This document shows positions 18,991 through 53,950 of a stretch of DNA of 64,000 bases, in pieces. The notes beneath the pieces were generated by a model. The model saw nothing but the letters and a program-made list of their open reading frames with translations, was not told where the DNA came from and searched no databases. Position numbers and translations under genes: made by a program. Every line of letters begins with the position of its first letter. Positions within the stretch are counted from its first letter, which is position 1. Origin of the DNA: Octopus sinensis (Eukaryota); the NCBI RefSeq assembly GCF_006345805.1, contig NW_021833423.1:1-64000 (forward strand), written 5' to 3'.

Positions 18991-19193
18991 GTGTCTGTCC
19001 CCCCAACATTGCTTGACAAACCATGCTGGTGTGTTTACGTCCCCGTAATTTTGCGGTTCGGCCGTCAAAAGAGACCGATAGAATAAGTTTAGGCTTACAG
19101 AGAATAAATCCTGGCGTCGATTTGCTCGACTAAAGGCGGTGCTCCAGAATGGCCGCAGTCAAATGACTGAAAGAAGTAAAAGAGTAAAAGAGT
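18985..19193 (+). mobile_element. SINE family A, 3' half
   Basis: CTAAAGGCGGTGCTCCAGAATGGCCGCAGTCAAATGACTGAAAGAAGTAAAAGAGTAAAAGAG. Confidence 0.9.
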
Positions 19194-19220
19194 ATATATA
19201 TATATATATATATAATATAT

Positions 19221-19251
<31 letters not shown>

Positions 19252-19477
19252 GAAATATTAAAATTACTAAGTCTCTATAAAAGAGATTACGGCAGCGTTT
19301 ACTGGAAATTAATTGTTATCGTCATATTAATATGGCATTCTTATAGATATAAGAATAATCGCTGCCATGGTCAGCTCCATGAGGCCACCGCCATCAAGAT
19401 AGCTATTGATACACGATCTGTATCCATTATAACCTTTGAACAAGGGAGGTCAGCCGCTTCACACTGCCAGTCCGACA

Positions 19478-19519
19478 GCTACAGACGCGTTTCGGGGTAT
19501 TGCCCCTTGTCAATGTAGC
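19478..19519 (-). ncRNA. Minimal type-I hammerhead ribozyme, U3-A8 core variant
   Basis: GCUACA-UUGACAA-GGGG caaua CCCC-GAAAC-GC-GUC-UGUAGC; 6-bp stem I, 4-bp stem II. Confidence 0.8.
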
Positions 19520-20027
19520 GCAGTCAGACCCGCAGGTGTCGCCACCGACGTCTCTGTTCGAAGGCTTCTATTTACCTAGTTTCAGTGGAATACATCCACT
19601 TGTTTTCAATAATAGAAATATTAAAATTACTAAGTCTCTATAAAAGAGATTACGGCAGCGTTTACTGGAAATTAATTGTTATCGCCATATTAATATGGCA
19701 TTCTTATAGATATAAGAATAATCGCTGCCATGGTCAGCTCCATGAGGCCATCGCCATCAAGATAGCTATTGATACACGATCTGTATCCATTATAACCTTC
19801 GAACAAGGAGCTGACCATGGCAGCGATTATTCTTATATCTATAAGAATGCCATATTAATATGGCGATAACAATATATTCCAGTAAACGCTGCCGTAATCT
19901 CTTTTATAGAGACTTAGTAATTTTAATATTTCTATTATTGAAAGCAAGTGGATGTATTCCACTGAAACTAGGTAAATAGAAGCCTTCGAACAGAGACGTC
20001 GGTGGCGACACCTGCGGGTCTGACTGC

Positions 20028-20069
20028 GCTACATTGACAAGGGACAATACCCCGAAACGCGTCTGTAGC
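20028..20069 (+). ncRNA. Minimal type-I hammerhead ribozyme, U3-A8 core variant (inverted copy)
   Basis: GCUACA-UUGACAA-GGG acaauac CCC-GAAAC-GC-GUC-UGUAGC; predicted cleavage after C20063. Confidence 0.8.
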
Positions 20070-20283
20070 TGTCGGACTGGCAGTGTGAAGCGGCTGACCT
20101 CCCTTGTTCGAAGGTTATAATGGATACAGATCGTGTATCAATAGCTATCTTGATGGCGGTGGCCTCATGGAGCTGACCATGGCAGCGATTATTCTTATAT
20201 CTATAAGAATGCCATATTAATATGGCGATAACAATTAATTTTTATATATATATATATATTATATATATATATATAATATATAT

Positions 20284-20317
<34 letters not shown>

Positions 20318-20459
20318 AATTAATTGTTATCGCCATATTAATATGGCATTCTTATAGATATAAGAATAATCGCTGCCATGGTCAGCTCCATGAGGCCACC
20401 GCCATCAAGATAGCTATTGATACACGATCTGTATCCACGATCTGTATTCTTATATATTC

Positions 20460-20789: not shown

Positions 20790-21852
20790 GCGCAAAAGTT
20801 ACGGTAAATAAACTGTTGCTTAAATTATGCAAAAATGAAATTATCACTGACATCTCATTTTAATAGATCTATTTACCAAAATTACATAAAAATGACTTGA
20901 AATACTAAAGAACAAATTTTTTCAATAACATCGCCACCAGATGACTTCTGAATCTCCTGCAACTCTTCTGGACGATCTCCTTGTTGAAGTTAGTGAATGC
21001 TGCTATAATCCTTGCCTTCATTACATCTTTGGTGCTACAAGGAGTTTTGTTGGTCTCTCGCTCAAATACGCCCCACACATAATAATCAAGGAGCGTTGCA
21101 GTGTGCGGTGTTAGGATTGATGTGGTCGCAGACTCTATGTCGGCGACCACGTCCAGCAGCCACCCTCTTGACTCAGGGCAGCACTATCTCCTCCATGTAC
21201 TTGATGTAGATCTCCGTACTGATTCTGAGACTGTGTGGGAAGAGGAATGGCGGCACAACGTCGCTATCACTAGCAATCACTCCAAACACAATGATATTGA
21301 CTGGATGTTCGATTTTTATCACTCTTGGTACATGTCCTCAGATTGCACTGCTCTGAGATTGACAAGCAAAAACTCTGAAATGTTCGTATTGGATCTTCTG
21401 GCGTGAATGCCAAGCAGTACAGCATGTCGTTTCCAAATTTCTGGCAGAGTGAATTGAGTCATGCTACTATACTCCGTAGTCGACAAAATCAAAGACAATG
21501 CGCATTATTGTTTATTCTTTATTCTTTACCTTGTTTCAGTCATTTGACTGTGGCCATGCTGGAGCACCGCCTTTAGTCGAGCAAATCGACCCCACTTATT
21601 CTATCGGTCTTTTTTACCGAACCGCTAAGTTACAGGGACGTAAATACACCAGCATCGGTTTTCAAGCGATGTTGGGAGACAAACACAGACACACGAACAT
21701 ATATATATATATACATACGTCGGGCTTCTTTCAGTTTCCGTCTACCAAGTCCACTCACTAGGCCTTGGTCGGCCCAAGGCTATAGTAGAAGAGACTTGCC
21801 CATGTTCAAAATTAAAAATATAAAATGGTGACAGTTTACCCCTCGCACCCTG
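20790..21852 (-). mobile_element. Tc1/mariner-superfamily relic interrupted by a SINE
   Basis: ORF 20905-21150 LDYYVWGVFERETNKTP...KARI..AF......CRRFRSHL.A (transposase C-terminus); terminus CCTCGCACCCTG|TA at 21852. Confidence 0.8.
21520..21803 (-). mobile_element. SINE family A, 5'-truncated, nested in DNA transposon
   Basis: Matches 15480-15810. Confidence 0.9.
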
Positions 21853-33149: not shown

Positions 33150-33563
33150 AGGCGAGCTGGCAGAATCGTTAGCACGCCGGGCGAAATGCTTAGCGGTATT
33201 TCGCATGTCTTTACTTTCCGAGTTCAAATTCCGCCGAGGTCGACTTTGCCTTTCATCCTTTCGGGGTCGATTAAATAAGTACCAGTTACGCACTGAGGTC
33301 GATATAATCGACTTAACCTGTTTGTCTGTCCTTGTTTGTCCTCTCTGTGTTTAACCCCTTGTGGATAGTAAAGAAATAGGTATTTCGTCTGCGTTACGTT
33401 GTGAATTCAAATTCCGCCGAGGCCGACTTTGCCTTTCATCCTTTCGGGGTCGATAAATTAAGTACCAGTTACGAACTGGGGTCGGTGTAATCGACTTAAT
33501 ACCTATGTCTGTTCTTGTTTGTTCCCTCTGTGTTTGGCCCCTTGTGGGTAATAAAGAAATAGG
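33150..33563 (+). mobile_element. SINE family B dimer
   Basis: Two successive TTCAAATTCCGCCGAGG..GACTTTGCCTTTCATCCTTTCGGGGTCGAT..AAAGAAATAGG units. Confidence 0.9.
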
Positions 33564-33719
33564 TTTCTATCCTAGATCCAAGTCTCCTTCATTGGAATTA
33601 CAACAACAGGGTATGTATGTATCTATGTATGCATGTATATATGTATGTGCAGATTTGTGTATTTTATGTATGTATTCTCATGCATATAGTTGCATATCTA
33701 GACATGCTCATATATGCTC

Positions 33720-51711: not shown

Positions 51712-53950
51712 AGGCGGTGAGCTGGCAGAAACATTAGCGCACAGGAAGGAATGCTTAGCGGTATTTTCTTTGCCGCTACGTTCTGAGTTCAAATTCCGCC
51801 GAAGTCGACTTTGCCTTTCATCCTTTCGGGGTCGATTAAATAAGTACCAGTTACGCACTGGGGTCGATATAATCGACTTAATCCTTTTGTCTGTCCTTGT
51901 TTGTCCCCTCTGTGCGTAGCCCCTTGTGGACAGTAAAGAAATAGGTATTTCGCACGTCGCTACGTTCTGAATTCAAATTCCACTGAGGTTGACTTTGCAT
52001 TTCATCCTTTCGGGGTCGATAAATTAAGTACCACTAAAACGCTGGAGTCGATGTAATCGATTATCTCCCTCCCCAAAATTTCATGCCTTGTGCCTATAGT
52101 AAAATGAATTATTTCCATCTGCAGAATCGTTACCTTTCAGCATTTGTTCTAACTCTATAAGTTCTGAGTTCACATCCGTCCGAGGACAACTATACCTTTG
52201 TCTTTCCGAGAATCGATAAAACAAAACAGTTAAATACTGTGCTCGATTAAATCGACTAATAACTCCTTACAAAATTTCAAACCCTGTACCTAGAAAGAAT
52301 TAGAAAGATATAATTAAAATCCTTTTAAAAGCAGAAAAATTTGCCGGCAAATTTTTCTGTTTTTAATAGGATTTTATCTTTTATATATACTGTTCAGTAT
52401 TTACGTGTTGAAAAAAGATATCATTCTACTTGTTCTACAATACATTTCAACGCTTCAAAACAAATTTATGTTTGTTTGCATATGACGTCATCTAGAAAGA
52501 GTCATTTCCATCATTTACTTTTGGTATTATTGAGCTTTGTCGTTAAAGCTGACAGAATCGTTAGCACATCTGACAAAATGCTTAACGGCATTTCTTCCAG
52601 CTCTTTAAGATCTGAATTCAAATTCCACCAAAGTCGAATTTACCTTTTTATCTTTGCGGGGTCGATAAAAAAGTACCAATTGAGTAATAGGGTCGATGTA
52701 ATCGACTTTACCCAGTTATTTAAAGATTGCTGGCCTTATATTTAAAATTTGAACCCATTTAAGGCGGAGCACTGCGGCATTTTTCCTAGTCTTACGGTCT
52801 GAGTTCAAATACCGTCGAGATCGACTTTGCCTTTTATCCTTTCGAAATCGATAAAATATGTACAAGTTGAGCATTGGAGTCGATGTAATTGACTAACTAC
52901 TGCCCCAGATTCCAGGCTTTGTTGCTAAAGTAAAAATAATTATTGCGTTTCATAATTGATATTGTTACTTGTCGACTTTTGTTCTATTTTTCTGTTCCGA
53001 CCTTTTTTCACTGTTTCTCGTTCTTATTCATTCTTTTGACGTCGTTATTGCTGTTATCGTAATTAATCTTTCGTTGTTGTCGATGCTACTGACGTAACTG
53101 GCGTTGTAATTATTTCAATATATGGAGCTGTTAAGGCGGCGAGCTGGCAGAAACGTTAGCACACCGGGCGAAGTGCTTAGCGGTATTTCGTTTGCCGTAA
53201 CTTTCTGAGTTCAAATTCCGCCGAGGTTGACTTTGCTTTTCATCCTTTCGGGGTCGATAAATTAAGTACCAGTTACGCACTGGGGTCGATATAATCGACT
53301 TAATCCGTCTGCCAGTCCTTGTTTGTCTCCTCTGTGTTTAGCCCGTTGTAGGTAGTAAAGAAGTAGGTATTTCGTCTGCCGCTAAGTTCTGAGTTCAAAA
53401 TCCTCCGAGGTCGACTTTGCCTTTCATCCTTTCGGGGTCAATTAAATAAGTACCAGTTACGCACTGGGGTCGATATAATCGACTTAATCCGTTTGTTTGT
53501 CCTTGTTTGTCCCCTCTGTGTGTAGCCCCTTGTGGGCAGTAAAGAAATAAGAAACGTTAGTATGTCGGGCGAAATGCTTAGCGGTATTTCGTCTGTCTTT
53601 ACGTTCTGAGTTCAAATTCCGCCGAGGTTGATTTTGCCTTCCATACTTTCGGAGTGGCTAAATAAAGTACCAGTTGCATATCAGGGTCGATGTAATTGAG
53701 TGGCCCCCCTTCCCCCAAAATTTCGGGCTTGTACCTAGAGTAGAAAAGAATAAATAGCGCTGGTAGAATTGTTACCAGGCCGGAAAAATTGCTTAGCGGC
53801 ATTACGTTCTGAGTTCAAAATCTCCCGAAGTCGATTTTGTTTTTCATCCTTTCGTGGTTGATAAAATAAATGTCAGTTAAACACTACGATCCAGGTAATC
53901 GACTTACCGCTGTCCCCAAAATTGGTGGTCGTATACCAAATTTTGAACCA
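51712..53950 (+). mobile_element. Cluster of co-oriented SINE family B units
   Basis: About 9 TTCTGAGTTCAAAT..GACTTTGC..TCGGGGTCGAT units at 51712-52300, 52545-52945 and 53133-53950. Confidence 0.9.

What the first reader, a model, noticed from the sequence alone, without database searches (positions are those of the whole stretch)
19981..20115. HHR helix I extends into a long interrupted rod with strand-specific G-U pairs
Flanks of the ribozyme pair in nested order: GCUACA/UGUAGC, GUCUGAC/GUCGGAC, CUGC/GCAG, CAC/GUG, GUCGGU/GCUGAC, AGCCUUCGAACA/UGUUCGAAGGUU. Several pairs are G-U only on the ribozyme-sense strand, which suggests selection on RNA structure rather than a DNA palindrome. The rest of the unit is also made of hairpins (GCCATATTAATATGGC, ATTCTTATA..TATAAGAAT, GTGGA..TCCAC, GATACA..TGTATC), as expected for a compact, viroid-like structured RNA.
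Basis: seen in the sequence. Interest (0 to 1): 0.7.

Follow-up and report, generated by a model that had tools for sequence, protein, structure and literature searches.

The report
Conserved rod of a hammerhead retrozyme
A predicted self-cutting RNA motif in a 363-base jumping repeat sits at the tip of a 43-pair interrupted stem whose pairing is kept, with changed letters, in five related repeat families, and this stem is predicted to let two neighbouring copies cut each other out as a unit ready to close into a small RNA circle, a known kind of element seen in unusual detail.

Summary
The rod is real: 43 pairs, -71.2 kcal/mol, z -6.9. It is the extended helix I of a type I hammerhead (U3-A8 core) in a 363-bp non-coding repeat, an animal non-LTR retrozyme; 1,442 exact core matches. 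Copies of the window's subfamily are too alike to test covariation, but sister families give it: 98.5% of cells paired, 10 of 15 pairs changed on both sides; every representative keeps 40-44 pairs. The G-U argument is weak for this copy alone (antisense z -5.3; one G-U is private) and modest across families (31 G-U, 15 A-C). 'Viroid-like' overstates it: the predicted circle is a rod plus a branched domain. In 41 of 57 real tandem dimers the unconstrained fold is the double hammerhead with rods swapped, which would release a monomer with its ends clamped. Insertions carry the Penelope footprint: 80 of 81 scorable back-to-back pairs join one short and one long 3' end. This locus itself cannot give a monomer. 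Cleavage, expression and circles are untested.

The parts
19982..20115 (+). Interrupted rod (extended helix I) with the hammerhead at its tip; 43 pairs, longest run 11
   Evidence: covariation
20028..20069 (+). Type I hammerhead: helix I 20028-20033/20064-20069, core UUGACAA 20034-20040 (U3-A8 variant), helix II 20041-20044/20050-20053 with loop CAAUA, GAAA 20054-20057, palindromic helix III ACGCGU 20057-20062, predicted cut after C20063. This copy has a private G>A at 20044 that weakens helix II (G in 42 of 43 copies)
   Evidence: sequence, pattern, family counts
20025..20070 (+). Internal loop of helix I (UGC 20025-20027 opposite U20070); URY/U in 8 of 9 close family representatives; likely tertiary partner of loop CAAUA
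   Evidence: anchored table; tertiary role inferred from canonical type I hammerheads (PMC4209133)
20095..20105 (+). Conserved 3'-arm motif UGACCUCCCUU, at +31 to +34 from the cut in 9 of 9 representatives, partly bulged; role unknown
19804..20241 (+). Right arm of the back-to-back insertion, 438 bp, 5'-truncated, ends at short site A; one hammerhead
19244..19808 (-). Left arm, 565 bp (1.55 units), 5'-truncated, ends at long site B; one hammerhead; 5-bp overlap with the right arm at 19804-19808
19432..19566 (-). Second copy of rod and hammerhead, helix II intact, one change in the outer helix
19244..19305 (-). About 60-bp 'tail' between sites A and B, present only at the end of the left arm
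20123..20226 (+). Small hairpins of the branched domain (20123-20139, 20191-20210, 20211-20226); the first and last are in the five-family consensus fold, the middle one is not
20317..20437 (-). Third, 121-bp fragment without hammerhead, ending at site A in the same TA array; likely a separate insertion
19193..19251 (.). (TA)n target, left
20243..20317 (.). (TA)n target, right

Best explanation
The stretch is the extended helix I of a type I hammerhead motif in a 363-bp non-coding tandem repeat (an animal non-LTR retrozyme), its pairing is conserved by compensatory changes across sister families, and it likely works as a clamp: in a tandem transcript the arms are predicted to swap partners so that two ribozymes share one palindromic helix III and would cut out a monomer whose two ends are already paired for ligation into a circle. 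Shown here: the rod, the family, the covariation, the palindromic helix III, the insertion footprint. Computed prediction: the double hammerhead as ground state of dimers, its loss when the rod is scrambled, and a circle whose own helix III costs about 6-8 kcal/mol to close, so that it would stay uncut. Inferred from published retrozymes and Penelope-like elements (PLEs): cleavage, ligation by an RtcB-type ligase, and copying of a circle or uncut multimer by a PLE reverse transcriptase that starts at two internal sites (A, B) from both nicked strands of a (TA)n target. The window locus is a dead-end product: each arm has one hammerhead, and a read-through RNA would fold arm on arm.
For: Fold z -6.88. 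1,442 exact core matches, reversed control 0; sister family with C3-G8 core among 791 matches, control 0, 66% identical over 145 bp; further families. Sequence-only MAFFT of 9 representatives, 15 inner pairs: 98.5% of 135 cells paired, 10 of 15 pairs with double change, 0 of 500 shuffles reach the covariation score, slid controls 29-55% paired. Own arms give the best duplex in 10 of 11 rows; the outer 24 nt of F1a give -23.7 with their own partner and -5.7 to -10.3 with other families. 40-44 pairs and no run above 14 in 9 of 9. Helix III/loop is a perfect palindrome in 167 of 175 distinct copies with four main different sequences; positions 3/8 are U-A 154, C-G 16, C-A 5. Double hammerhead is the unconstrained minimum-energy fold in 41 of 57 dimers with complete rods and 3 of 11 with a truncated arm; scrambling the outer rod leaves it in 3 of 48 trials, scrambling non-rod sequence in 42 of 48 (four arrays). 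Two 3' end clusters in 5 of 5 families, 181 of 273 segments followed by TA-like DNA; 80 AB, 1 BB, 0 AA among 98 unique back-to-back pairs; 140 of 178 arms run through the cut site, 84 exceed one unit. Arms of one locus are closer to each other than to other loci in 61 of 75. Young PLEs with intact RT + GIY-YIG frames, a U3-A8 hammerhead-like motif and (TA)n 3' flanks are in the genome.
Against: No cleavage, expression or circle data; read laying was inconclusive. Rfam finds no hammerhead. The antisense strand also folds well (z -5.26; circle z -5.6 against -7.1; in one F1a monomer antisense z is the stronger, -9.2 against -7.8). MAFFT plus RNAalifold recovers only the inner 11 rod pairs; the outer rod shifts register between families, so its support is alignment-free only. 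Between F1a and F1b 3 of 6 changed pairs break in the F1a register, between F1a and F1c 4 of 6. Representatives are related, so counts are not independent. 16 of 57 complete dimers do not fold as double hammerhead; ensemble share is 0.45, 0.53, 0.49, 0.07 and 0.0 in five arrays. Any tandem hairpin with a palindromic tip gains a helix by swapping, and scrambling 80 nt frees sequence to mispair, so these folds show what the rod permits, not why it was kept. Co-transcriptional folding favours the unswapped rod. No sequence link between the retrozyme units and the PLE 3' regions examined. One F3 circle folded no better than shuffles (z -1.5).
Confidence: 0.65

Rival explanations
1. The rod is selected as RNA, but as a general stability or protein-binding element (closing the circle, resisting exonucleases, presenting the bulged UGAYYUCCC motif to the PLE protein or a host factor); cleavage geometry needs only the inner 11 pairs.
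For: Inner helices carry the clean covariation; the outer rod keeps length and a conserved partly unpaired motif while its partners change; runs never exceed 14 bp, which would fit avoidance of dsRNA sensors (recalled biology, untested). In the anole PLE the hammerhead needs protein and cleavage is dispensable for insertion in vitro (PMC11167929).
Against: In folds the outer rod is needed for the double hammerhead to be the ground state (3 of 48 against 42 of 48). Not exclusive with the best explanation.
Confidence: 0.22
2. The rod is a by-product of the insertion mechanism: back-to-back junctions near the cut site create perfect inverted repeats, so the 5' arm is a decaying DNA mirror of the 3' arm, renewed now and then, and apparent covariation is wholesale re-templating.
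For: L180 shows such a junction giving a perfect mirror around the core (-110.5 against -109.8 on the two strands). Both strands fold well.
Against: The URY/U internal loop sits at the same place in 8 of 9 representatives, which a mirror would erase; isolated double changes (G-C to A-U at -20, A-U to G-C at -11) occur inside otherwise unchanged helices between 85%-identical subfamilies; G-U exceeds A-C 31 to 15 in the 9 close representatives and the sense fold is lower in 11 of 12 rows. It may still explain how the rod first arose.
Confidence: 0.08
3. The unit is a viroid-like RNA that also replicates RNA-to-RNA, the rod serving as a template for a host polymerase.
For: Compact, 60-64% paired circle, interrupted rod, several coexisting families with paired substitutions. 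Sequence heterogeneity of mussel circles led the authors to raise the idea (PMC7229834).
Against: All copies studied are genomic insertions with a PLE footprint; hammerhead pattern in one polarity only; the circle is branched, not rod-like; DNA-level retrotransposition accounts for every observation.
Confidence: 0.05

Closest known systems
Animal non-LTR retrozymes (Cervera and de la Pena 2020, PMC7229834; Li, Clavereau and Pollet 2026, 10.64898/2026.07.22.740005)
   Same: Tandem 350-363-bp non-coding units, GC 41-49%, one type I hammerhead per unit, self-paired predicted circle, PLEs in the same genome; F1's weak palindromic helix III resembles axolotl HHR_Amex1, which cleaves as a dimer.
   Different: U3-A8 core in most copies examined (154 of 175); a 40-44-pair rod shown to covary over five families; dispersed back-to-back insertions with two fixed 3' ends in (TA)n, not described in the parts of these papers that I read. 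Expression and cleavage are shown there, not here.
Endonuclease-bearing Penelope-like elements and their tail (PMC8557442, PMC3846280, PMC11167929)
   Same: 5' truncation, partial tandems, adjacent inverted 5'-truncated copy, tail at one end, two internal reverse-transcription starts, AT-rich or (TA)n targets.
   Different: No ORF; tail 43-63 nt, not 30-40; one-short-one-long pairing is near strict (80 of 81) where the papers say 'often' or 'optionally' at one end; canonical hammerhead with loop 1/loop 2 motifs, not a minimal one.
Double hammerhead of newt satellite 2 and avocado sunblotch viroid (Forster 1988, as cited in PMC4209133 and PMC7761336; original not seen)
   Same: Palindromic helix III shared by two tandem motifs; dimers active, monomer circle spared.
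   Different: Here the swap involves 40-44-pair rods and is predicted to be the global minimum of the dimer.
U3-A8 hammerhead variants (PMC3088659; Schistosoma Cercyon-related motifs, PMC4209133)
   Same: Compensatory change of the C3-G8 core pair, reported as active in vitro.
   Different: There a few examples or mostly single minimal motifs; here high-copy canonical motifs in tandem units, with a C3-G8 sister family in the same genome.
Viroids and HDV-like circular RNAs
   Same: Small, highly paired circle with a hammerhead; interrupted helix.
   Different: Encoded in DNA, one polarity, branched outside the rod, no evidence of RNA-to-RNA replication.

Membership tests
Type I hammerhead ribozyme | Conserved core (N3 UGA N N8 A, GAAA, NUH) with a 3-8 pair | tested here: met
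   UUGACAA / GAAA / GUC; 3-8 pair U-A 154, C-G 16, C-A 5 of 175; U3-A8 is a known variant (PMC3088659, passage)
Type I hammerhead ribozyme | Helix I 6 bp, helix II 4 bp, short palindromic helix III | tested here: met
   this copy's helix II has a private mismatch at 20044
Type I hammerhead ribozyme | Loop 1 / loop 2 tertiary contact | tested here: inconclusive
   URY/U loop and CAAUA-type loop conserved; the contact itself cannot be computed, and the likeness to the Schistosoma motif is recalled
Type I hammerhead ribozyme | Match to Rfam hammerhead models | tested here: not met
Type I hammerhead ribozyme | Self-cleavage | not testable with these tools
   needs in vitro assay; only 1 of 9 predicted frog dimers cleaved in 10.64898/2026.07.22.740005
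Animal non-LTR retrozyme | Tandem units of 150-450 bp, each with a type I hammerhead | tested here: met
   69 distinct cut-to-cut monomers of 336-365 bp; one arm of 3,564 bp in L109. The window locus itself has no two hammerheads in tandem
Animal non-LTR retrozyme | GC below 50%, no coding frame | tested here: met
   GC 0.41-0.49; longest stop-to-stop frame inside the insertion 116 aa
Animal non-LTR retrozyme | No LTR, PBS or PPT | not tested
   no LTR layout seen in segment maps; PBS and PPT not searched
Animal non-LTR retrozyme | Expressed as linear and circular unit-length RNA | tested here: inconclusive
   no holder on record as RNA; contigs cannot show strand, ends or circles
PLE-mobilised element | Variable 5' ends, fixed 3' ends, inverted 5'-truncated partner, tail at one end | tested here: met
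PLE-mobilised element | Tail of 30-40 bp | tested here: not met
   about 43 (F2, F4), 50 (F3), 57-63 (F1) nt between end modes
PLE-mobilised element | Autonomous partner with a homologous terminal repeat | tested here: inconclusive
   RT + GIY-YIG elements present, but no unit similarity inside their bodies in 44 loci, drawn from 150 scored of 5,029 candidates
Viroid / viroid-like replicon | Rod-like or fully paired circle with ribozymes in both polarities | tested here: not met
   branched fold, 60-64% paired; pattern in one polarity, window only
Viroid / viroid-like replicon | RNA-to-RNA replication | not testable with these tools
   needs strand-specific RNA data

The most novel reading that the evidence does not exclude
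The rod is a register switch that makes the catalytically active double hammerhead the ground state of any tandem transcript, releases a monomer with clamped ends and leaves the circle inactive; a PLE enzyme dimer then reads that circle from two fixed internal sites, one per nicked DNA strand, which gives the strict one-short-one-long back-to-back arrays. These families would be a natural, sequence-varied kit for testing the whole animal retrozyme cycle, whose mobilisation step has not been shown in the papers read.
Probability: 0.3. Interest if true: 0.72.

Novelty: new variant of a known kind. Interest (0 to 1): 0.48.

Why it matters
Animal retrozymes are known to make abundant RNA circles, but two points are open in the papers read: what keeps the circle from cutting itself again (PMC7229834 notes the ribozyme is not blocked by self-pairing) and how it is copied back into DNA. 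Here five families with different letters keep the same rod, the same palindromic tip and two internal 3' ends. This gives covariation evidence for the structure, a concrete folding model for dimer-only cleavage, and a genomic footprint tying the units to a Penelope-type enzyme that reads through the cut site. Each step can be tested with short transcripts. The kind of element is known, and similar insertion footprints were already noted elsewhere in this scan, so the gain is mechanism and testability.

Tried and rejected
Rfam scans found no hammerhead; miRNA-model hits come from the inverted repeat around the TA array and were dismissed. Covariation within the window's subfamily is uninformative: only 3 rod or core positions vary by 10% or more from the window copy among 43 copies. 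RNAalifold on sequence-only alignments missed the outer rod because of indels; I did not build a structure-fitted model, to avoid circularity. No RNA holder listed. Laying three guessed-RNA runs and one unlabelled run gave contigs only, mostly with sister-subfamily letters over the ribozyme; no conclusion on expression, and no silent control stretch was laid. A pile-up of 5' ends at the cut site, expected for a linear cleaved template, was not seen: 11 of 178 within about 8 nt, near the uniform expectation. Circle against uncut multimer could not be told apart. BLAST of five units against 44 PLE loci matched 3 loci, read as neighbouring insertions outside the PLE body. Most diverse hammerhead-like hits have no rod (of 27 folded, z below -3 in 8, four of them F1 copies and one driven by a TA run); they were left out, except L165, L179 and L187 (seeds of F3-F5) and L173, L182 (distant rows). 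output was swamped by TA matches, so PLE end types were not scored. A 92-aa frame beside the locus had no significant Pfam match. PMC5785218 is not held. Earlier-findings look-ups by place and by sequence were empty.

Full report
Observation. Window 19981-20115 (+) folds as one interrupted rod of 43 pairs (runs 11,1,2,6,2,3,4,8,6) at -71.2 kcal/mol; 0 of 200 dinucleotide shuffles do as well, z -6.88. The reverse strand also folds strongly (-61.0, z -5.26). At the tip lies a type I hammerhead motif: helix I 20028-33/20064-69, core UUGACAA, helix II with loop CAAUA, GAAA, palindromic ACGCGU, predicted cut after C20063. The core has U3-A8 in place of C3-G8, a natural compensatory variant reported active in vitro (PMC3088659, passage; PMC4209133, parts 1-2 of 4). 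Rfam does not detect it.

The locus. The rod belongs to a 363-bp unit. The insertion has two back-to-back, 5'-truncated arms, 19244-19808 (-) and 19804-20241 (+), each ending in (TA)n, plus a 121-bp fragment at 20317-20437. Each arm has one hammerhead, so no unit-length RNA can be cut from this locus, and a read-through transcript folds arm on arm (-846.5 kcal/mol; 20030 pairs with 19517). The copy in question also has a private G>A in helix II (1 of 43 copies). The rod therefore tells about the family's RNA, not about this locus.

The family. The genome G000 (2.72 Gb) gave 2,128 candidates, the best 40 scored at 96-100% identity. A 25-letter core pattern has 1,442 exact matches, control 0, covering the window's subfamily F1a and an 85%-identical F1b; 129 places match 48 letters of F1a exactly. 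A canonical-core pattern gave 791 matches, control 0, most of the 100 listed being a 353-bp family F2 that is 66% identical to F1a over 145 bp. A third pattern (104 matches, control 0) led to F3 and F4 (2,148 and 1,713 candidates, which may overlap other families) and a single-locus F5. Family labels are mine.

Is the rod selected as RNA? Within F1a there is too little variation. Across 9 real representatives aligned by sequence alone, the 15 inner pairs (two rod helices and helix II) are paired in 98.5% of 135 cells, 10 of 15 show changes on both sides, 0 of 500 shuffles reach the covariation score, and slid controls give 29-55% (the shuffles ignore relatedness). Counting outward from the core without any alignment gives the same picture and a URY/U internal loop in 8 of 9. 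The outer rod shifts register and is missed by RNAalifold, but alignment-free tests support it: own arms make the best duplex in 10 of 11 rows, the outer 24 nt of F1a pair at -23.7 with their own partner and -5.7 to -10.3 with other families, and all 9 keep 40-44 pairs with no run above 14. Isolated double changes separate F1a from F1b (G-C to A-U, A-U to G-C), though 3 of 6 changed pairs break in the F1a register. On G-U: of five in this copy one is private, one polymorphic, three fixed. A strand-neutral count gives 4 G-U to 1 A-C here, 31 to 15 in the 9 close representatives (summed by hand) and 48 to 19 with two distant ones; rows are related, so the nominal p of 0.0005 overstates it.

The rest of the unit. 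The circular fold of the window's unit is -124.5 (z -7.1; antisense -108.6, z -5.6; 25 shuffles), a rod plus a branched domain, 64% paired; the non-rod part alone is weak on both strands. This is a retrozyme-type circle, not a viroid rod.

How the rod likely works. Helix III plus loop is a perfect palindrome in 167 of 175 distinct copies, with different letters per family, the mark of the double hammerhead known from newt and PLE motifs (PMC4209133; PMC7229834, parts 2-4 of 6). In that fold each core acts on the other unit's cut site, so the rod arms must swap partners, and the swapped inner rod joins the two ends of the future monomer. In real tandem dimers this is the unconstrained minimum-energy fold in 41 of 57 with complete rods and 3 of 11 with a truncated arm; it beats two single hammerheads by 12-20 kcal/mol in 7 of 8 first tests, the eighth having a truncated arm. 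Scrambling the outer rod leaves it in 3 of 48 trials, scrambling non-rod sequence in 42 of 48 (four arrays; a fifth was inactive throughout), and closing helix III in the monomer circle costs 5.5-7.7 kcal/mol. These are nearest-neighbour predictions without tertiary contacts or folding kinetics. Ligation by an RtcB-type enzyme is taken from axolotl and mussel retrozymes (PMC7229834).

How it spreads. All five families have two 3' end clusters, A at about +170 to +183 and B at +217 to +240 from the cut; 181 of 273 segments are followed by TA-like DNA; 5' ends are scattered. Of 98 unique back-to-back pairs 80 are A+B, 1 B+B (a 35-nt cross-family match, likely spurious), 0 A+A, and 17 have an unclassified end; in the pattern-found subset 34 of 40 are A+B and 6 unclassified. 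L020, an F2/F1a chimera, reads as a further B+B if followed to its far end. 140 of 178 arms run through the cut site and 84 exceed one unit, with no pile-up of 5' ends at the cut, so the template was a circle or an uncut multimer. Arms within a locus are closer than to other loci in 61 of 75. This matches the PLE footprint: inverted 5'-truncated partner and a tail at one end (PMC8557442, PMC3846280, passages), the tail being the stretch between two internal starts of reverse transcription (PMC11167929, parts 1-2 of 4). Young elements with 775-781-aa RT + GIY-YIG frames, a U3-A8 hammerhead-like motif about 90 nt before the end and (TA)n flanks exist in the genome, but none of 44 loci shares sequence with the units, so the partner is not identified.

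Against what is known. It works like, and meets the sequence-level features of, an animal non-LTR retrozyme; cleavage and circles are untested. A PLE origin of retrozymes has been argued from co-occurrence and terminal-repeat trees (10.64898/2026.07.22.740005, parts 1-3 of 5). Searches for a description of such a rod or of a strict two-end rule (listings only, plus passages of PMC7761336) found none, but figures are not held, I opened no supplements, and bioRxiv supplements are closed; published circle drawings may show similar rods. Earlier notes of this scan report the same two-end footprint; I had recorded it before, and those notes are not independent evidence.

Verdict. Observation confirmed, interpretation partly supported. 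A new variant of a known kind; interest 0.48.

Noticed in passing
L020 (1196-2573), L115 (1829-2190), L051, L116: Insertions that join arms of different families (F2 with F1a; an F1c arm ending at A with an F2-like arm ending at B), suggesting that two different RNAs can serve in one event, or that the same TA site is hit twice.
   Followed up: partly
L180:936-1086 and 1499-1765: Back-to-back junction inside helix I that makes a perfect mirror rod around the core; shows how the insertion mechanism itself could seed a rod.
   Followed up: partly
L272:4540-4870 and window 20093-20105: The PLE 3' region carries repeated GATTGG and GATGACGTCCC-like boxes (CCAAT/CRE-like promoter look, label recalled); the conserved rod motif GATGACYTCCC of F2 and F3 resembles them. 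Post-hoc, short; may hint at a DNA-level promoter role.
   Followed up: no
L272:5238-5330; L275:4863-4965: Young RT + GIY-YIG PLE family (775-781 aa frames) ending in (TA)n with a U3-A8 hammerhead-like motif and ACATGT palindrome; candidate mobiliser.
   Followed up: partly
L118 (G000:C1:28190500-28197000): F1b array whose units alternate between two helix II variants (period about 720 bp): a dimeric template or a local higher-order duplication.
   Followed up: no
L173, L182, L183, L164: More distant hammerhead-like elements with CAAUA-type loops, some with long rods (z about -3.4) and microsatellite 3' flanks; possibly further families.
   Followed up: partly
window 33223-33564 and 53182-53546: Two tandem dimers of a related 183-184-bp repeat, SINE-like in look.
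   Followed up: no
window 20905-21183 (-): 92-aa frame with a DYYVWG motif that looks like a Tc1/mariner transposase C-terminal fragment (label recalled; no significant Pfam match).
   Followed up: partly
The unit is held by runs of four coded organisms (A-D), so the family is not confined to this assembly.
   Followed up: partly
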